A DNA stretch of 64,000 nucleotides from Escherichia phage vB_Eco_F27. The notes beneath the pieces were generated by a model. It was not told the DNA's origin. It made no database searches and saw nothing but the letters and a program-made list of their open reading frames with translations. Positions 34,857 through 43,029 of the stretch are shown here, in pieces. Within the stretch, counting starts at the first letter, position 1. Every line of letters begins with the position of its first letter. Location: the sequence record OP870146.1; one strand, written 5' to 3'. Made by a program: the position numbers and the translations under genes.

Positions 34857-35335
34857 TCGGTAATAAAACGTTCAACTTCATTATTCTTGGCCTTTATCTT
34901 GTCTTTACGTTCCTGTAAACTACTTTTAACAAGATTAATAATGATGCCTACAGTACCTCCACCAATAATACCACCAATAATACTTACAATAGTAGATGCT
35001 AATAAGATAGCGATAATATCTAGTACAGCAAAGGCACTTACTTTAGTACTAAAAAACCATACCGACGGTACAAATATAATCCATCCTGTTATCCATTGGC
35101 ACTTATTGAAAAACTTTTCAAGCTCAGCTTGAGTTGTTCGTATTACTTCATCGATAGGTTGATATCCATTAATGTATCTGTTCACAATAATACCTGCTGG
35201 CTGGTCGATTTTAAATTCTTGGCAAATATGTTTCACTAAGTAGGATGGACATCCTGTCCAATCTACCGAATAATACGAAATACCTTCGTTGCCATCGTCT
35301 ATATTAGACCAATATGTTTTGTTAATCATTACCAA
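34838..35335 (-). CDS. hypothetical membrane protein
   Basis: 165 aa with two hydrophobic helices. Confidence 0.5.
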   Translation of the reverse strand: MVMINKTYWSNIDDGNEGISYYSVDWTGCPSYLVKHICQEFKIDQPAGIIVNRYINGYQPIDEVIRTTQAELEKFFNKCQWITGWIIFVPSVWFFSTKVSAFAVLDIIAILLASTIVSIIGGIIGGGTVGIIINLVKSSLQERKDKIKAKNNEVERFITECRNLR

Positions 35336-36015
35336 CCTTCCATAGGGAATTCCAGATAAACTTGGGCATTGACACGAATTTCATTGGTAATCTTTTTAAC
35401 TCGGTCTGTATTACGAGATACACGTCCGAACCAACGCCATCCATTACTAATTGCACGAGAACCAGTGTGCCATGTTTGCCAATCAAACTGAAGAAGAGTA
35501 CGATCTGGAGCTTCCCATTTCTCTAGTTCACCTTTTTCAATTTTTTCGAGGACTTCTTTGTGCCACTGGCGATAGATAAGTTCGCCATCAGGAATCTGAC
35601 TGAACTCTGCAGTTCCTGTTGCAAAATGAGTAGGACACACATCAGCGTTAACAAGACCAAGAATATGTTCAGACAAATAGCGAGGATTGTCATAATCAGG
35701 TTGTCCTGCAGTAATAAAATGTTGTCCTGTTGGAATATCTGGGCGTGGTACGTCATCATGGTGATATCCAGGAATAGCAGGGTACCAACCAGGCATCAAC
35801 ATGTGGACTCGTGAATCAAATACTACATCCGAGTCTTTCCAATCGTCAGGGAGATTTTGAATAAAGCTACGAGTAATTGGGCCGCCATTATCAAAAGCAA
35901 AATTCAAATCGCAGTTAAAGAACATAGGCTCGTTTTTAATCTGGTCGTTTTTAATCGCATGAGCAAAACCACCTACTGCACGAGCTTGACTATTAAACAC
36001 TTTAGAACTATTCAT
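35329..36015 (-). CDS. hypothetical protein
   Basis: 228 aa ORF. Confidence 0.55.
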   Translation of the reverse strand: MNSSKVFNSQARAVGGFAHAIKNDQIKNEPMFFNCDLNFAFDNGGPITRSFIQNLPDDWKDSDVVFDSRVHMLMPGWYPAIPGYHHDDVPRPDIPTGQHFITAGQPDYDNPRYLSEHILGLVNADVCPTHFATGTAEFSQIPDGELIYRQWHKEVLEKIEKGELEKWEAPDRTLLQFDWQTWHTGSRAISNGWRWFGRVSRNTDRVKKITNEIRVNAQVYLEFPMEGW

Positions 36016-36016
36016 A

Positions 36017-36322
36017 TTATTTTCCTCGACATTCTTTAATGAAATTTTCTAGATTGGTAGATTCAATAGCTTTTTTACGAGCTTCAACATGTTCTTCTTC
36101 AGACAATTTACATTTATAATTGACCCAGACATTATGGTCGAAACTAGTCGTGGCATATAATAACAAAGCTCCGACGAATAATAAAAACGGTGATAAGAAT
36201 ATACAACCAGGCACACCATCCATACTGTAAGCCTTTTGTAATACTGCAACAGAAAGAGTTGCGTAAAAAAGTGATGCAAATATTGTTAAAAGACCAATTC
36301 GGTTGGTTTCGCCTAATTTCAT
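36017..36322 (-). CDS. hypothetical membrane protein
   Basis: 101 aa ORF. Confidence 0.5.
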   Translation of the reverse strand: MKLGETNRIGLLTIFASLFYATLSVAVLQKAYSMDGVPGCIFLSPFLLFVGALLLYATTSFDHNVWVNYKCKLSEEEHVEARKKAIESTNLENFIKECRGK

Positions 36323-36392
36323 AATATTCTCCTCATGTTTTAATAGGACTACTATAACATAGTCCTATAATTGTGTAAACAGTTTTGCGAAA

Positions 36393-37349
36393 TTATTTGA
36401 AAGGTTTTACCATATGGAAATTTTGTTTGAAACGTTTGACGTAATCGTCATGTCCTAAGCTTTGGTACATACTTACTACTTTGCTGTAGTTTTCCCAGGC
36501 GTATTCACGGAACCAACCGGAGGTGATGCTTGTGCAGACTTTTTCTAATGCCATCATGAAACTGGCTTCAGGGTTAATTTTAAAGTCATTAGGAATCTGA
36601 GAACGTTCTAATGCTAGTACACATGATTCTTCATATACACCGGCCAATTTGACCATTTCTGGTAACGATTCGAACTTCTCGCGTGAGGTCATGACTTCAG
36701 AACCGTCTTTCATATAAAATGTATAAGCCGGACGGTCTGTTAGTGCAATGGCTTCATGAATAGTATCATGGTCATATGTATAGATGTCATCTTTAAAGAA
36801 CGCACTTTTAGAAGTGTCAAGAACCGGGTGAGCATAGTTCAAGGTTTCTTTCTGGCGTTTCAGCATAATTTCAGTAAGTTCATCGTTCAGTGTAACACCT
36901 TTACCACGAAGATACTGAATATGGTTCATAGTCTTTAAAAAGAATGGATTATTTTTCTTGAAACGATGAGACATCTTAATTGCAAGACATATCTCAGGAG
37001 TTGCCCAGTAAAACCCGTTCAAACGGTCTTTAGTCAAATTTTTCTTGGCGTATTTTAAAAGGTCATAAGAAGACGTGAAATCTTCAGGAGTGAGTTCACC
37101 GACTAATTCACGGACATTAGTGATTGCCGGAACAATATATGCTTCAAAATGAGTTTCGCGTCCATTATGGAAGCATTTGAAAACTTGGACATCAGGGTTA
37201 TCTTGGTGAACATATACACCCATCATTTGATTTTTGAATGCATTCCAAGAACCTTGGTCCGCAATAAAGTCCCAATCGCTATTTTTGATAGCGCTAGAAT
37301 CAATAAGACCATGATAGTGAAGTGCACGAGAACCAATAACTAACATCAT
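36393..37349 (-). CDS. Pol-beta-type nucleotidyltransferase-like protein
   Basis: 318 aa; IGSRALHYHGLIDSSAIKNSDWDF fits the GSx9-13DxD pattern. Confidence 0.5.
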   Translation of the reverse strand: MMLVIGSRALHYHGLIDSSAIKNSDWDFIADQGSWNAFKNQMMGVYVHQDNPDVQVFKCFHNGRETHFEAYIVPAITNVRELVGELTPEDFTSSYDLLKYAKKNLTKDRLNGFYWATPEICLAIKMSHRFKKNNPFFLKTMNHIQYLRGKGVTLNDELTEIMLKRQKETLNYAHPVLDTSKSAFFKDDIYTYDHDTIHEAIALTDRPAYTFYMKDGSEVMTSREKFESLPEMVKLAGVYEESCVLALERSQIPNDFKINPEASFMMALEKVCTSITSGWFREYAWENYSKVVSMYQSLGHDDYVKRFKQNFHMVKPFK

Positions 37350-37377
37350 AATATTTTCCTCGGATTAATTCATTAAC

Positions 37378-37629
37378 TTAAATTTCACGACATGCGATAT
37401 TATATTCGTCCCAGAGGTCATCGTGTGAAGCCTCTACCAATGGAACGATTGTACCGTTTATGTCTTCATTATAAGGGCAAATTGTACAGTGCGCATCTTC
37501 GAATCGGATGCCTTTGTGTTCAGATTTTTTATAACGCATATCGAATATCTTTGCAAACTTTTCACGAGTAATGGTTTTAGCAACCACTTTGGTTCCGATA
37601 CTTTCGTAATAAATCATTGTGGACTCCAT
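37378..37629 (-). CDS. hypothetical Cys-containing protein
   Basis: 83 aa ORF. Confidence 0.45.
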   Translation of the reverse strand: MESTMIYYESIGTKVVAKTITREKFAKIFDMRYKKSEHKGIRFEDAHCTICPYNEDINGTIVPLVEASHDDLWDEYNIACREI

Positions 37630-37679
37630 TTAATTTGATAGGACTACTATAACATAGCCCTATCTTGTTGTAAACTGTT

Positions 37680-37877
37680 TTAGCAAGAATAACTAGATGA
37701 TACCCAGCCTTGAACAGTGATACTATTATGGGATAATGAGATCGCGTCCTGGAGATTCAGACCTGCGTTATCTTCAATCCATAATGTAACTTCTTCGCGT
37801 TCTTCTGTTGCAATTTGGAACAGGTTTTCCAGAGCAGCTACTGCCGTACGTACAGCACAATCTAATTCACGAGACAT
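37680..37877 (-). CDS. small protein, WVSSSxxC-terminus family (paralog 1)
   Basis: 65 aa ending ...QGWVSSSYSC. Confidence 0.45.
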   Translation of the reverse strand: MSRELDCAVRTAVAALENLFQIATEEREEVTLWIEDNAGLNLQDAISLSHNSITVQGWVSSSYSC

Positions 37878-37886
37878 ATTGTTTCC

Positions 37887-38159
37887 TTAGCAAGTGTGAG
37901 AAGATGCGACCCAACCACCAGTTTCGAGGCTCAGGTTGTAGTCGTATTGGTAAACGTCAGCCCATTCAGCATAGCCGTTTTTTGTACAACGTTCAAGATC
38001 GGCTTTAAGATGTCCGGGTGAATGATAGGTTCCACCCATACCATAAGCTGGATACAAGTCGAATGTTGTGTTTTGTTTATCAGCAATTTCTTTGGCAGCC
38101 TCAATAGCTGCATAGATTTTTGCTACAGCTTCAGCCAGTTCGGTTTGTTCTTTAGACAT
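37887..38159 (-). CDS. small protein, WVSSSxxC-terminus family (paralog 2)
   Basis: 90 aa ending ...GGWVASSHTC. Confidence 0.45.
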   Translation of the reverse strand: MSKEQTELAEAVAKIYAAIEAAKEIADKQNTTFDLYPAYGMGGTYHSPGHLKADLERCTKNGYAEWADVYQYDYNLSLETGGWVASSHTC

Positions 38160-38168
38160 AATGATTCC

Positions 38169-38474
38169 TTAGCACAACGCAGAAGACGAAACCCAAGCAC
38201 CTTCAGTAATAACGTAACCATTACCTTCACGCTTAACATCGCCACCATTATTTTCAATTTCATCTTTCATCCACTGGGATACGATTTCACCCTTAGGATA
38301 ATAAGTACGACCACTACCATAATCACCTACAGAAAATGATACGGCATATTGGTCTGCGATCTTTGTTGCTTCTTCTTCGATACGTTCAGCTTGATTCAGA
38401 AGTTTATAAATTGCATCTGAAGCGGATTTGGCATCATTAAACTCTGGTACTTTAATTTCAATAATCTTACTCAT
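38169..38474 (-). CDS. small protein, WVSSSxxC-terminus family (paralog 3)
   Basis: 101 aa ending ...GAWVSSSALC. Confidence 0.45.
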   Translation of the reverse strand: MSKIIEIKVPEFNDAKSASDAIYKLLNQAERIEEEATKIADQYAVSFSVGDYGSGRTYYPKGEIVSQWMKDEIENNGGDVKREGNGYVITEGAWVSSSALC

Positions 38475-38830
38475 TTTCTACATTCCTTAATAAAGTTTTC
38501 GATTGTTTCATTTTCACGTCTAGCTAGGAGTTCATTATAACTAATCGTTTGAGAAGCGTAAACCTTTTTATTTTTCTTGTTGTGGTTTATAAAATCGTAG
38601 TAAAAATAGACTACAGTACAAAATGATGCGATGGATGCAAAGGCTTGGGTATACCGTAAGTCCTGCCATTGGTCTGTGAATCCACCAGTGTTCCCTATAA
38701 ATCCTAACACAACGCCGTCAATAAGAAATCCAACTAATCCAAAGGCAAATCCCATGCCAATACTCATAATAAAAATTAGAATGTTCTCACCAAGAGAAGG
38801 CCATACGGTTAAGAGTTGAGGCTTTTGCAT
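38471..38830 (-). CDS. hypothetical membrane protein
   Basis: 119 aa ORF. Confidence 0.45.
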   Translation of the reverse strand: MQKPQLLTVWPSLGENILIFIMSIGMGFAFGLVGFLIDGVVLGFIGNTGGFTDQWQDLRYTQAFASIASFCTVVYFYYDFINHNKKNKKVYASQTISYNELLARRENETIENFIKECRK

Positions 38831-39234
38831 CTTATTTCCTTAACGAATTCCATAGCTTCTTCATATTCATACTTTTTAACAGCTTCATCATACTGAGCTT
38901 GGGCTTTTGCGCACTGAACTTTCCATTCGCGTACTCGAGCTCTATAATGACGGCCTTGGTGCCAATATCCTGCCCAATTAATAGGCATTAATAAAAATGG
39001 CACAATAAACGGCCCGGCTATAATAAGTAAAAACACTGCATCAGACGATATAACTTCACTAGAATCTAAAACAGCTCCTATAATCATAAAGATTAAAAAT
39101 GCTAAAGCTAAAATAGGGCCAAATAGTACTTCATTTGGGATTAATTTACGTTTGTATTCGTATGCCCAGGGCTTAATTGGCATGTACAGGGTTGGCTTTG
39201 ACATATTCTCTACATTCCATAATAAATTGCTCAA
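38809..39234 (-). CDS. hypothetical membrane protein (start uncertain)
   Basis: 141 aa ORF. Confidence 0.4.
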   Translation of the reverse strand: MSNLLWNVENMSKPTLYMPIKPWAYEYKRKLIPNEVLFGPILALAFLIFMIIGAVLDSSEVISSDAVFLLIIAGPFIVPFLLMPINWAGYWHQGRHYRARVREWKVQCAKAQAQYDEAVKKYEYEEAMEFVKEIRCKSLNS

Positions 39235-39775
39235 GGATTAAATTGTTAGTGAAATTAGGACTAACAACCATAGTTTCATAAAGCGCATCAATAGCACTTA
39301 AAGCATCAACTCTTTTAAGCAAAGGCTTGCCTTCATACATAGTTTCAGAATCGATGATTAACGTAAAGTAATATTTTTTATTATCGACTAGAACTTCCGT
39401 ATCGATATAAAACATATTAGACCTCAGAAGCTTATCTCTAAAACCATAATAATCTTCAGAGCGTTCGCTGATATATTCCCATTCAGTGTTTAAACAACAA
39501 ACAGACCATGTAGGAGCAACGAAATCGGTGAATCTAATATCATGGTCTGCAACTAGTTTAGCAATAGCTCCGATATCATGAATCATAATACCTGGGGCTA
39601 ATAAAGATTTTCTGCTATGGCTAGCCGTTTTCTCAGTAGTCTCATAAGAAGACGACCAGTACCATTTACGTCCAGTTGCAACATATCGTAATGAATCAAC
39701 TAAAGATGTAGGTGGATTTACCTTATCTCGGAACTCTTCGAACATTGAGTCAATATCATTATTTTGGTTTCGCAT
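39173..39775 (-). CDS. hypothetical protein
   Basis: ATG at 39775 (MRNQNNDIDS...) preceded by AAGGAG. Confidence 0.5.
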   Translation of the reverse strand: MRNQNNDIDSMFEEFRDKVNPPTSLVDSLRYVATGRKWYWSSSYETTEKTASHSRKSLLAPGIMIHDIGAIAKLVADHDIRFTDFVAPTWSVCCLNTEWEYISERSEDYYGFRDKLLRSNMFYIDTEVLVDNKKYYFTLIIDSETMYEGKPLLKRVDALSAIDALYETMVVSPNFTNNLILEQFIMECREYVKANPVHAN

Positions 39776-39824
39776 GTTAACTCCTTTATTATCCAAAAGG
39801 AGGACCGGAGTCCTCCGTATTATT

Positions 39825-40418
39825 TTATTTCAAAGAGTTAATATATTCTTGTACATCAGCAGAAGTGGTTTCGACGCCGGCTGGAGTGCCATTGAACGTT
39901 TCAACACGAGTCAGAGTGTCTTCGATATCAACCTTAGTCAGTGCAGCGATTTCAATTACATCATCGGCCGTAGAGATACCAAGGGCATTGGCTGCTCGAG
40001 TTTCACGAATGTATTCGAGTTTGATTGCCAGGTTCTGACGAGCATCGTCAAGTTCAACCACCTTACGAGCAATTTCAATTCGCATAGCGGCATACCCGTC
40101 AGCTTTTGTATTAAGTTGTTCGGCAGTTCGACGATACAGAAGACCAAGCTTAGCATGCATGGTAACATCTTGTCCTTCAGCCAGGAGCTTACGAATTTCA
40201 CGTTCCTTAGAAGCGGCTTGCTTGTTCTTTTCATTAACAAGTTCGCGAATACGTTTTTCTTCATTAATAGATTTAACAGAAGCCGTTTTTAGTTCTTTGA
40301 TTTGGGTAATCAACTTATCTGCAGCTGCGTTATACTGTTCTTCGACAGTCAGATTTTTAGCCATAGCAGTACCAAGTTTAGTGCGGATGAATTCAACAAG
40401 TTTCTTCAGTGTGTTCAT
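39825..40418 (-). CDS. hypothetical coiled-coil protein
   Basis: 197 aa from the ATG at 40418 ([10 protein letters not shown]...). Confidence 0.5.
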
Positions 40419-40488
40419 ATTATTACCTTTCAATTGGTGGTTTATTATCCAACGAGAGCATTATACTCTGCTCTCAAGAGATTGTAAA

Positions 40489-40716
40489 TTATTTTTTAAT
40501 CAAATTGACATAAAACTCGGCGTCTTCCGGGTGCATGCCTTCGCAGTATTCTTCAACCATGAACTTCTTAACAGCTTCATAAGGACCGCTCAGATTAAGC
40601 TCAGTTGTCCAGAACTTGGAATCTTGGACCGAATCGATACGAACTTCAGGGTGACGGTTGCGAATAACTTCTTCAGTGTATTCATAATCAACGACATCAA
40701 TACTAACTGTAGCCAT
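40489..40716 (-). CDS. hypothetical acidic protein
   Basis: 75 aa ORF. Confidence 0.45.
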   Translation of the reverse strand: MATVSIDVVDYEYTEEVIRNRHPEVRIDSVQDSKFWTTELNLSGPYEAVKKFMVEEYCEGMHPEDAEFYVNLIKK

Positions 40717-42777: not shown

Positions 42778-42854
<77 letters not shown>

Positions 42855-42954: not shown

Positions 42955-43029
42955 TGGTGGCCCTGGCTGGTTTCGATCCAGCTACCTATCAGTTATGAGC
43001 TGACAGCTCTCCCATTGAGCTACAGGGCC
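42955..43029 (-). tRNA. tRNA with CAU anticodon (Ile2-type or Met)
   Basis: Hand-folded: acceptor GGCCCTG/CAGGGCC, D-arm GCTC-AATGGGA-GAGC, anticodon stem GTCAG/CTGAT with loop CTCATAA, T-arm GCTGG-ATCGAAA-CCAGC, encoded CCA. Confidence 0.75.

What the first reader, a model, noticed from the sequence alone, without database searches (positions are those of the whole stretch)
37680..38474. Tandem triplet of small proteins sharing a C-terminal WVSSSxxC motif
Three adjacent ORFs (65, 90 and 101 aa) have divergent bodies but each ends with G-x-W-V-[SA]-S-S-x-x-Cys-stop (QGWVSSSYSC, GGWVASSHTC, GAWVSSSALC). The nucleotide sequences differ, so the motif is conserved at protein level. A conserved C-terminal tail ending in Cys suggests a shared targeting, modification or interaction signal.
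Basis: seen in the sequence. Interest (0 to 1): 0.6.

Follow-up and report, generated by a model that had tools for sequence, protein, structure and literature searches.

The report
Phage small proteins paired with nucleotidyltransferase
The three small genes are real tandem copies of a large, unstudied phage protein family that always ends in Trp-x-Ser-Ser-Ser-x-x-Cys and almost always sits beside one particular uncharacterised nucleotidyltransferase gene, so the tail is probably how these proteins engage that enzyme.

Summary
Observation confirmed. In an RB69-like Mosigvirus window, minus-strand ORFs 38169-38474 (101 aa), 37887-38159 (90 aa) and 37680-37877 (65 aa) end GAWVSSSALC, GGWVASSHTC and QGWVSSSYSC, using different codons. 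The motif occurs nowhere else in the window.

They are diverged paralogues, not unrelated bodies. The family is phage-restricted and acidic, with 714 clusters at 50% identity and no Pfam model. Its signature is always at the C-terminal end: G-G-W-[VILM]-[SA]-S-S-x-x-C. AlphaFold (pLDDT 92) places the tail inside a helix plus beta-sheet fold with no relative in the PDB.

Best reading: the trio are partner proteins of this enzyme, and the tail is the docking or acceptor site. They could be substrates or MenA1-like inhibitors. The mechanism is inferred, not shown. No literature was found on either family.

The parts
38169..38474 (-). ORF3, 101 aa (equivalent to RB69ORF139c+138c, which are split in the RB69 reference). 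Family member of the 'DYGSGRTYYP' subtype, ending GAWVSSSALC.
   Evidence: (phrog_899, E=1e-22). AlphaFold pLDDT 91.9.
37887..38159 (-). ORF2, 90 aa (equivalent to RB69ORF137c). Family member of the 'AYGMGGTY' subtype, ending GGWVASSHTC.
   Evidence: (phrog_899, E=3.5e-19).
37680..37877 (-). ORF1, 65 aa (equivalent to RB69ORF136c). Short subtype with a helix plus the C-terminal motif and no YGxGxTY loop, ending QGWVSSSYSC. It is the copy nearest the nucleotidyltransferase gene.
   Evidence: (phrog_4882).
38172..38201 (-). Codons of the ORF3 C-terminal motif G-A-W-V-S-S-S-A-L-C. The stop codon is at 38169-38171.
37890..37919 (-). Codons of the ORF2 C-terminal motif G-G-W-V-A-S-S-H-T-C. The stop codon is at 37887-37889.
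37683..37712 (-). Codons of the ORF1 C-terminal motif Q-G-W-V-S-S-S-Y-S-C. The stop codon is at 37680-37682.
36393..37349 (-). Partner gene: 318-aa Pol-beta-fold nucleotidyltransferase (DUF7277 N-terminal domain plus DUF7275 helical domain; equivalent to RB69ORF134c). Invariant residues include G6-S7, D25-x-D27, E69, H128, H174, H194-D195, H198, C243 and C272.
37378..37629 (-). Intervening 83-aa ORF (equivalent to RB69ORF135c, phrog_3723). It is present in only a subset of related loci and is not part of the conserved core.
37646..37674 (-). T4-early-like promoter consensus match (TTTACA-N17-TATAGT, with TG) between ORF1 and the 83-aa ORF.
   Evidence: This is a consensus match only, and such matches are not enriched over shuffled sequence.
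38534..38562 (-). Promoter-like site (TTTACG-N17-TATAAT) inside e.3, upstream of ORF3.
   Evidence: This is a consensus match only.

Best explanation
The three ORFs are tandem paralogues of a large, phage-restricted family of small acidic cytoplasmic proteins. Each has an N-terminal helix packed on a small beta-sheet and the hallmark ending W-x-[S/A]-S-S-x-x-Cys.

The family forms a conserved two-component module with a single-copy Pol-beta-fold nucleotidyltransferase (DUF7277+DUF7275; here 36393-37349). I propose that the small proteins are the enzyme's protein partners. The C-terminal Trp/Ser-Ser/Cys end would be the element that docks in or next to the nucleotidyltransferase active site.

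My favoured version is that the tail is an acceptor. A Ser hydroxyl (or the Cys thiol) would be nucleotidylylated, as MntA does to HepT or GlnD does to PII. Several diverged paralogues with variable acidic loops would then be alternative substrates or effectors.

Shown:
- The family exists and the motif is invariant.
- The gene linkage holds across diverse phages.
- The partner has a nucleotidyltransferase fold and intact catalytic motifs.

Inferred:
- Physical interaction between the small proteins and the enzyme.
- That the tail is the contact or acceptor site.
- The chemistry of any modification.
- The biological target.

I put a functional partnership at about 0.7. The overall confidence of 0.45 is for the statement as a whole, including the tail as the docking or acceptor site. 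The covalent-substrate version specifically is about 0.3.
For: 1. Family and motif. An exhaustive profile search finds 714 representatives (50% clusters) at E<=1e-3. All listed hits are 68-175 aa, and the domain is essentially always at the very C-terminal end. Of 200 sequences, 186 end W-x6-C, with W, the Ser at -4 and Cys in all 186 and the Ser at -3 in 184. The short ORF1 subtype lacks the YGxGxTY loop but keeps the tail, so the tail is the universal element.

2. Linkage. In 34 viral loci fetched with the small protein, every locus with enough downstream flank has the 318-aa gene 0.3-2 kb downstream on the same strand. Conversely, 69 of 80 loci fetched with the 318-aa protein have an HMM-detectable member upstream, and 6 of the 11 misses have diverged W..SS..C ORFs. 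Among 28 representatives (<62% enzyme identity to each other), 26-27 carry the small family. All 59 motif-bearing ORFs are on the enzyme's strand, within -2.8 to +1.2 kb. No other gene cluster is shared by more than 6 loci, apart from one 9-locus cluster that is an antisense ORF inside the enzyme gene.

3. The linkage is not just inherited synteny. It holds in Straboviridae (Tevenvirinae and Twarogvirinae), Otagovirus, Phapecoctavirus, Menderavirus and about 370-kb jumbo-phage contigs, where the flanking genes differ. In phage Mendera the order is inverted but adjacency is kept.

5. Chemistry of the small proteins. The invariant residues are mostly hydroxyl or thiol bearing (Y, T, Y, S, S, C). 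In 105 of 192 proteins the terminal Cys is the only Cys, so it cannot serve an intramolecular disulfide.

6. The pattern of several diverged paralogues (1-6) per single, highly conserved enzyme fits multiple substrates or adaptors sharing one recognition element.
Against: - No interaction or modification was tested. AlphaFold-multimer was not available.
- AlphaFold puts the tail inside the fold (pLDDT about 91 for residues 91-100). It may therefore be structural rather than a docking peptide.
- One related group of loci (L084/85/87/112) and L065 keep an enzyme with intact motifs but have no small gene within 2 kb. Distant DUF7275 homologues in actinophages, DSS3_VP1 and ValKK3 also have none. 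The enzyme therefore does not strictly need an adjacent partner.
- About 4% of members carry one extra residue after the Cys, and two lack the terminal Cys.
- Gene linkage in phage early regions can reflect co-regulation rather than physical partnership.
Confidence: 0.45

Rival explanations
1. Antitoxin-like or pseudosubstrate regulators. The small proteins bind non-covalently and block or tune the MenT-like nucleotidyltransferase, as the 68-aa MenA1 blocks MenT1 active sites with its long helix. The enzyme would be a host-directed (for example tRNA 3'-end) modifier that the phage must restrain or time.
For: The closest structural neighbours of the enzyme are MenT1/3/4 toxins. In MenAT1 a small helical protein encoded upstream neutralises the toxin by occluding its active site (PMC10435456). 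Here the small genes are usually upstream, have a 29-residue N-terminal helix and are strongly acidic, with median pI 4.4. That would suit an RNA-binding cleft.
Against: - One to six diverged paralogues per single enzyme is unusual for an antitoxin.
- The genes are often separated from the enzyme gene by other ORFs or promoter-like sites, and lie downstream in Mendera.
- Some phages keep an intact enzyme with no adjacent small gene.
- There is no sequence or profile similarity to DUF1814 or to known antitoxins.
- This model does not explain the invariant Ser-Ser...Cys.
Confidence: 0.22
2. Independent function. The motif is a structural cap or ligand- or metal-binding site of a stand-alone small protein, for example a sponge for a nucleotide signal or an inhibitor of a host protein. 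Linkage to the nucleotidyltransferase would reflect only co-regulation or a shared pathway at a distance.
For: - The tail is confidently modelled as part of the fold.
- The conserved Y/G/T/Y loop plus W/S/S/C could line a small pocket.
- Tandem diversifying paralogues are typical of phage counter-defence proteins.
- The enzyme occurs without an adjacent small gene in a few phages.
Against: The linkage survives across five or more phage lineages with otherwise unrelated neighbourhoods and an order inversion, and no other gene is co-conserved. The small family was never seen away from the enzyme gene in any locus with sufficient flank.
Confidence: 0.18
3. Specificity adaptors. Each paralogue docks on the enzyme through the conserved tail and presents a different variable acidic or aromatic loop, directing one enzyme to different targets.
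For: The pattern is conserved ends plus a hypervariable middle segment of 10-40 residues. Copy number varies around a single conserved enzyme.
Against: There is no precedent among MenT/ANT-like nucleotidyltransferases and no direct evidence. The variable loops are short and of low complexity.
Confidence: 0.08
4. RiPP-like maturation of the tail. This could be a Ser-x-x-Cys thioether or AviCys-type ring, as in epidermin's C-terminal S-x-x-C (recalled from general knowledge of lanthipeptides). Ser activation might be by nucleotidylylation and elimination.
For: The pattern S(-3)-x-x-C(0) and S(-4)-x-x-x-C(0) matches common lanthionine ring spacings. The partner enzyme has invariant Cys243, Cys272 and several His that could bind a metal.
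Against: - No LanB/LanC/LanD-like, flavoprotein or radical-SAM gene is co-conserved.
- The proteins are folded, 65-100 aa, and not leader-core peptides.
- About 4% have a residue after the Cys, which is incompatible with obligatory oxidative decarboxylation.
- I know of no nucleotidyltransferase-driven dehydration (own knowledge, not searched).
Confidence: 0.05
5. Artefact: chance ORFs, or a motif imposed by overlapping signals such as the TAAGGA Shine-Dalgarno sequence at the gene junctions.
For: The stop codon plus GGA does form TAAGGA before the next ATG at two junctions.
Against: ORF1 has no downstream coupled gene but keeps the motif. The motif is conserved with different codons, across hundreds of distant homologues, and in different junction contexts.
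Confidence: 0.01

Closest known systems
MenAT1 (MenA1 antitoxin / MenT1 DUF1814 nucleotidyltransferase toxin) and related AbiE/MenAT systems
   Different: - No sequence or profile similarity to DUF1814 or to MenA proteins.
- The module is phage-only: 5 loci in 185,579 bacterial and archaeal species genomes, all on contigs from metagenome assemblies, the longest (167 kb) of T4-like phage size.
- There are 1-6 paralogous small genes.
- The enzyme has an extra, highly conserved 190-aa helical domain (DUF7275) with His/Asp/Cys invariants.
- The small proteins have a beta-sheet and an invariant W-x-S-S-S-x-x-C end, which MenA1 lacks.
Protein-nucleotidylylating Pol-beta enzymes with small protein substrates (MntA/HepT type VII toxin-antitoxin; GlnD/PII; CitX or MdcG with acyl-carrier proteins). 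Recalled from general knowledge, not tested here.
   Same: A Pol-beta-fold transferase is encoded next to a roughly 100-aa protein that it modifies on a hydroxyl side chain. The small proteins here have invariant Tyr, Thr and Ser residues.
   Different: The small proteins have no conserved Arg or His, so there is no HEPN Rx4-6H motif. No PII or ACP relative turned up in the Pfam or PDB searches. The acceptor, if any, is unknown. The multi-paralogue arrangement and the terminal Cys have no counterpart.
Aminoglycoside and lincosamide nucleotidyltransferases (ANT(2'')/AadB, LnuA)
   Different: Those are stand-alone enzymes acting on small-molecule hydroxyls, without partner proteins. There is no sequence similarity.
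Lanthipeptide and AviCys precursor peptides (for example EpiA ...S-x-x-C-COOH)
   Same: Both have a C-terminal Cys with Ser three or four residues upstream.
   Different: These are folded proteins, not leader-core peptides. No dehydratase, cyclase or decarboxylase is co-conserved, and an extra C-terminal residue is sometimes tolerated.

Membership tests
W-x-S-S-S-x-x-Cys small-protein family (PHROG 899 / 4882; not in Pfam) | Significant profile match to family members | tested here: met
   phrog_899 E=1e-22 (ORF3) and 3.5e-19 (ORF2); phrog_4882 E=8e-37 (ORF1). All three are recovered with the A2 and A3 profiles.
W-x-S-S-S-x-x-Cys small-protein family (PHROG 899 / 4882; not in Pfam) | C-terminal G-x-W-[VILM]-[SA]-S-S-x-x-C immediately before the stop codon | tested here: met
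   All three ORFs have it. Of 200 homologues, 186 do.
W-x-S-S-S-x-x-Cys small-protein family (PHROG 899 / 4882; not in Pfam) | Located within about 3 kb, on the same strand, of a DUF7277+DUF7275 gene | tested here: met
   The enzyme gene at 36393-37349 lies 331 bp downstream of ORF1. The same arrangement is seen in 26-27 of 28 representative loci.
Pol-beta nucleotidyltransferase superfamily (for the 318-aa neighbour) | hG[GS] ... Dh[DE]h ... third carboxylate motif | tested here: met
   G6-S7, D25-W-D27 and E69 are invariant in 36 diverse homologues.
Pol-beta nucleotidyltransferase superfamily (for the 318-aa neighbour) | Alpha/beta nucleotidyltransferase fold | tested here: met
MenAT / AbiE (DUF1814) toxin-antitoxin systems | Toxin matches the DUF1814/AbiEii sequence family | tested here: not met
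   Pfam scans of 36 members at E<=5 give only DUF7275 and DUF7277. There is no PADLOC hit and no relevant NCBIfam hit (only a sub-threshold hisJ_fam match). The profile search against PDB sequences finds no MenT.
MenAT / AbiE (DUF1814) toxin-antitoxin systems | Small or wHTH antitoxin gene directly upstream, in an operon with the toxin | tested here: inconclusive
   Small genes are usually upstream. They are often separated by other ORFs or promoter-like sites, are multi-copy, and lie downstream in Mendera.
MenAT / AbiE (DUF1814) toxin-antitoxin systems | Toxicity of the nucleotidyltransferase, neutralisation by its partner, and tRNA 3'-end nucleotidylation | not testable with these tools
   This needs expression assays and tRNA sequencing.
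MenAT / AbiE (DUF1814) toxin-antitoxin systems | Carried on bacterial chromosomes or plasmids | tested here: not met
   Only 5 loci in 185,579 species genomes, all on contigs from metagenome assemblies, the longest (167 kb) of T4-like phage size. 733 phage records carry the enzyme.
HEPN/MNT type VII toxin-antitoxin (protein AMPylation) | Substrate protein is a HEPN domain with an Rx4-6H motif | tested here: not met
   There is no invariant Arg or His in the small-protein alignment. No HEPN hit in Pfam.
Lanthipeptide / AviCys RiPP precursors | Co-encoded dehydratase, cyclase or LanD-type decarboxylase | tested here: not met
   The only co-conserved gene is the nucleotidyltransferase. The neighbours in the distant locus L003, where Pfam hits of all called genes are listed, carry no such domains.
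Lanthipeptide / AviCys RiPP precursors | Short unstructured leader-core peptide; Cys strictly C-terminal for AviCys | tested here: not met
   The fold is confident through the tail. Eight of 200 members have one residue after the Cys.
Ubiquitin-like / sulfur-carrier proteins (ThiS/MoaD) | C-terminal Gly-Gly and an E1-like adenylating partner | tested here: not met

The most novel reading that the evidence does not exclude
The module is a previously unrecognised phage post-translational modification system. A MenT-like nucleotidyltransferase with a unique His/Asp/Cys-rich helical domain would covalently nucleotidylylate the invariant Ser-Ser (or terminal Cys) of a family of small acidic proteins. 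It might go further and convert them, for example by elimination and thioether formation. Each phage would carry one to six alternative substrates whose variable loops target different host factors or defence systems.
Probability: 0.3. Interest if true: 0.85.

Novelty: new variant of a known kind. Interest (0 to 1): 0.66.

Why it matters
The small-protein family has at least 714 clusters at 50% identity. The enzyme family has more than 2,200 clusters at 90% identity and is present in 733 deposited phage genomes. Both are widespread in therapeutically used T4-like, rV5-like, Acinetobacter, Aeromonas, Klebsiella and Pseudomonas phages, yet neither has any assigned function.

The block is absent from the syntenic e.2/e.3 junction of T4, and neither family was found in the parts of T4 examined. 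That may explain why it was never studied.

Recognising the two families as one module turns two 'hypothetical protein' families into a testable hypothesis. The enzyme has a defined candidate active site, and the small proteins have defined candidate acceptor residues. The closest structural relatives of the enzyme are tRNA-modifying toxins used in abortive infection. The module could therefore be a host-takeover or counter-defence device, and possibly a new kind of protein nucleotidylylation.

Tried and rejected
- Pfam, NCBIfam and PADLOC scans of the three ORFs and of 35 family members: only isolated sub-threshold matches, none shared by more than 2 of the 35 members.
- Sequence and profile searches of both families against PDB sequences: nothing.
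- Literature searches for RB69ORF134c-139c, DUF7275/7277, PF23940/23942, VOG and PHROG ids, and keyword combinations: no paper on either family. The jumbo-phage survey PMC7824862 describes RlaP and CCA-adding nucleotidyltransferases but not this module.
- RNA-repair or tRNA linkage: tRNA genes are not consistently nearby. RNA ligase and PNKP neighbours occur only in some loci.
- Rosetta-stone fusions of enzyme and small domain: none among 87 enzyme genes. The longest (411 aa) has an unrelated N-terminal extension.
- The 'sulfurtransferase' label in phage JK45 is on the e.4 homologue and is irrelevant.
- A third conserved component: none. The 83-aa ORF between the trio and the enzyme is present in only a subset of loci.
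- Promoter and terminator scans are not enriched over shuffled sequence, so expression timing remains an inference.
- The whole T4 genome was not scanned. Only 1-50 kb and 65.5-72.5 kb were examined.

Full report
**Context.** The window is an RB69-like Mosigvirus. Bases 36000-40500 are 98.5% identical to phage mogra and 97.8% identical to RB69. The finding lies in the e.2-e.6 accessory region downstream of lysozyme e and nudE. The three ORFs correspond to RB69ORF136c, 137c and 138c+139c. In T4 itself e.2 directly abuts e.3. The block containing the trio and its neighbours (window about 35329-38474) is therefore an accessory insertion relative to T4. No homologue of either family was found in T4 bases 1-50,000 or 65,500-72,500; the rest of T4 was not scanned.

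**Observation.** The ORFs at 37680-37877 (65 aa), 37887-38159 (90 aa) and 38169-38474 (101 aa) are on the minus strand and in one frame. They end QGWVSSSYSC, GGWVASSHTC and GAWVSSSALC respectively. Codon choice differs between copies. No other ORF end in the 64-kb window carries the motif.

They are paralogues:
- ORF2 vs ORF3 gives E=3e-6 (30% identity over 73 aa).
- ORF1 vs ORF2 and ORF1 vs ORF3 give E=4e-4 and 1e-3.
- ORF2 and ORF3 fall in phrog_899, and ORF1 in phrog_4882.
- There are no Pfam, NCBIfam or PADLOC assignments.

**The family.** Word-indexed and exhaustive profile searches find a large family. There are 714 representatives of 50%-identity clusters at E<=1e-3, and 120 at E<=1e-10. 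All listed hits are 68-175 aa, and the match nearly always runs to the last residue. The architecture is:
- an N-terminal amphipathic helix ending ...A-x-x-[IL]-A-[DN]-E;
- a strand and tight turn, x-F-x-x-(G)-[DA]-Y-G-[SM]-G-[RG]-T-Y-Y-P;
- a variable acidic and aromatic segment of 10-40 residues;
- G-x-W-[VILMQ]-[SAP]-S-S-x-x-C-COOH.

Of 200 sequences held, 186 end W-x6-C, with W(-7), S(-4) and C(0) in all 186 and S(-3) in 184. Eight have one extra residue after the Cys, and two lack the terminal Cys. The ORF1-type subfamily (MSRELDCAVRTA..., 65 aa) is conserved in several genera. It lacks the YGxGxTY loop but keeps the tail, so the tail is the one universal feature.

The proteins are acidic, with median pI 4.4 and net charge -8. 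In 105 of 192 the terminal Cys is the only Cys.

**The key finding: a conserved two-gene module.** A homologue from a 371-kb jumbo-phage contig (P0050) is followed by a second paralogue (...GRWMGSSDFC). About 1 kb downstream is a DUF7275 protein, the same family as the 318-aa ORF at window 36393-37349, which lies 331 bp downstream of ORF1.

I tested this link in both directions:
- Starting from the small protein: among 34 viral loci fetched this way, every locus with enough downstream flank has the 318-aa homologue 0.3-2 kb downstream on the same strand.
- Starting from the 318-aa protein: of 80 viral loci, 69 have an HMM-detectable member (E<1e-3). These are always on the same strand and, with one exception, upstream of the enzyme gene. 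Six of the 11 misses have diverged small ORFs ending W-x(2-3)-S-S-x(0-2)-C. Only one related group (L084/85/87/112) and L065 show none within 2 kb.

In 28 representative loci whose enzymes are <62% identical to each other, the small family is the only gene family co-conserved with the enzyme. It is present in 26-27 of the 28. All 59 motif-bearing ORFs lie on the enzyme's strand within -2.8 to +1.2 kb. The only other recurrent clusters are an antisense ORF inside the enzyme gene (9 loci, an artefact) and clusters in 6 loci or fewer.

The link extends beyond Straboviridae:
- Otagovirus phiPsa347 and Phapecoctavirus phiWec181 and tuntematon carry it.
- Acinetobacter Twarogvirinae carry it.
- In Stenotrophomonas phage Mendera two members lie immediately downstream of the enzyme gene, so the order is inverted while adjacency is kept.

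Very distant DUF7275-only homologues have no small partner. These are in Gordonia and Streptomyces phages, DSS3_VP1 and ValKK3. Copy number ranges from 1 to 6. The module is essentially phage-only. Only 5 loci were found in 185,579 species genomes, all on contigs from metagenome assemblies, one of them 167 kb, the size of a T4-like phage genome. By contrast, 733 phage records carry the enzyme.

**The partner enzyme.** The 318-aa protein (DUF7277+DUF7275; more than 2,200 clusters at 90% identity, all unnamed) has invariant G6-S7, D25-x-D27 and E69. This is the Pol-beta nucleotidyltransferase signature. It also has a very conserved helical C-terminal domain with H128, H174, H194-D195, H198, C243 and C272.

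No sequence-level similarity to these is detectable. MenT toxins add nucleotides to tRNA 3' ends. MenT1 is neutralised by MenA1, a 68-aa helical protein encoded upstream that occupies the active-site face (PMC10435456).

**Interpretation.** Three things are shown. The ORFs are real and conserved. The motif is the signature of a large family. The family is genetically coupled to a nucleotidyltransferase with intact catalytic motifs.

What is inferred is that the small proteins are physical partners of that enzyme and that the tail is the contact or acceptor element. I favour a substrate model, with nucleotidylylation of Ser-Ser or the Cys, analogous to MntA/HepT or GlnD/PII. Three observations point that way:
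- The only universal element is a hydroxyl- and thiol-rich tail.
- The terminal Cys is usually the sole Cys.
- Several diverged paralogues accompany one highly conserved enzyme.

A MenA1-like inhibitor or pseudosubstrate model is nearly as good, and fits the closest structural analogue. Against both models, the tail is predicted to be part of the fold. A few phages also keep an intact enzyme without an adjacent small gene.

An independent role, such as a ligand sponge or host-protein inhibitor with only regulatory linkage, remains possible. A RiPP or AviCys reading is unlikely: no maturation enzymes are co-conserved, the proteins are folded, and an extra C-terminal residue is sometimes tolerated.

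**Comparison with the known.** The module works most like small-partner-plus-minimal-nucleotidyltransferase pairs such as MenAT1 or MntA/HepT. It fails membership tests for DUF1814/MenAT (no family match, phage-only, multi-copy partners) and for HEPN/MNT (no HEPN motif). Neither family has a published function in the searched library. I therefore rate it a new variant of a known kind. There is a real chance (about 0.3) that it is a new protein-modification system.

**Expression hints (weak).** The stop codon plus GGA forms TAAGGA 8-9 nt before the next ATG at both internal junctions, which suggests translational coupling. T4-early-like hexamers occur at 38562-38534 and 37674-37646 on the minus strand. 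The scan is not enriched over shuffled sequence, so this is only a consensus-level hint.

Noticed in passing
L001 4669-4975 (RB69 reference) vs window 38169-38474: The RB69 GenBank record has a one-base insertion (T) that splits the ORF3 orthologue into RB69ORF139c and 138c. It also has TCT->CCT, changing the motif to WVSSPALC. This is either a lab-strain pseudogene or a sequencing error. Nearly all relatives have the intact 101-aa gene.
   Followed up: yes
window about 35329-38474 vs T4 (L135 2153-2820): In T4, e.2 abuts e.3. The block holding a 228-aa ORF, a 101-aa membrane ORF, the nucleotidyltransferase, the 83-aa ORF and the trio is an accessory insertion in RB69-like phages.
   Followed up: partly
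window 37878-37889 and 38160-38171: At the ORF3-to-ORF2 and ORF2-to-ORF1 junctions, the TAA stop plus GGA makes a TAAGGA Shine-Dalgarno sequence 8-9 nt before the next ATG. All three ORFs share one reading frame, consistent with tandem duplication and translational coupling.
   Followed up: partly
window 37378-37629 (-): An 83-aa ORF (equivalent to RB69ORF135c, phrog_3723) with a Cys/His-containing segment (HCTICPYNED...ACREI) sits between the trio and the enzyme gene. It is conserved in only some related genera. Its function is unknown.
   Followed up: partly
L116, L108, L089, L121: Some metagenomic phages carry four to six tandem family copies next to the enzyme gene. L116 has one further copy downstream of the enzyme gene.
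   Followed up: partly
protein P0061 (134 aa, metagenomic): This appears to be two family units fused head to tail. The first unit's ...GWAASSQSC is internal and the protein ends ...VWDHSGCAF. It may be a read-through of two tandem genes, and would be a natural test of whether the Cys must be terminal.
   Followed up: no
L084, L085, L087, L112, L065: These nucleotidyltransferase genes keep the G-S/D-x-D and Y-x-H-D-x-I-H motifs (in L087 the G-S/D-x-D part lies on a separate 55-aa ORF just upstream), but have no recognisable small partner within 2 kb upstream. Whether a partner lies elsewhere in those genomes is unknown.
   Followed up: partly
L137 3079-3474 (Shigella phage JK45): The e.4 homologue, a predicted membrane protein, is annotated 'sulfurtransferase' in that record. 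This is probably an annotation artefact and is unrelated to the Cys-ending trio.
   Followed up: yes
window 42778-42854 and 42955-43029 (-): tRNA-Arg(tct) and tRNA-Met(cat) genes lie about 4.3 kb upstream of the trio. No consistent tRNA linkage was seen in other loci.
   Followed up: yes
window 39799-39816: A strong GC-rich hairpin (GGAGGACCGGAGTCCTCC) followed by a T-run on the minus strand lies between e.6 and e.5. It looks like an intrinsic terminator.
   Followed up: no
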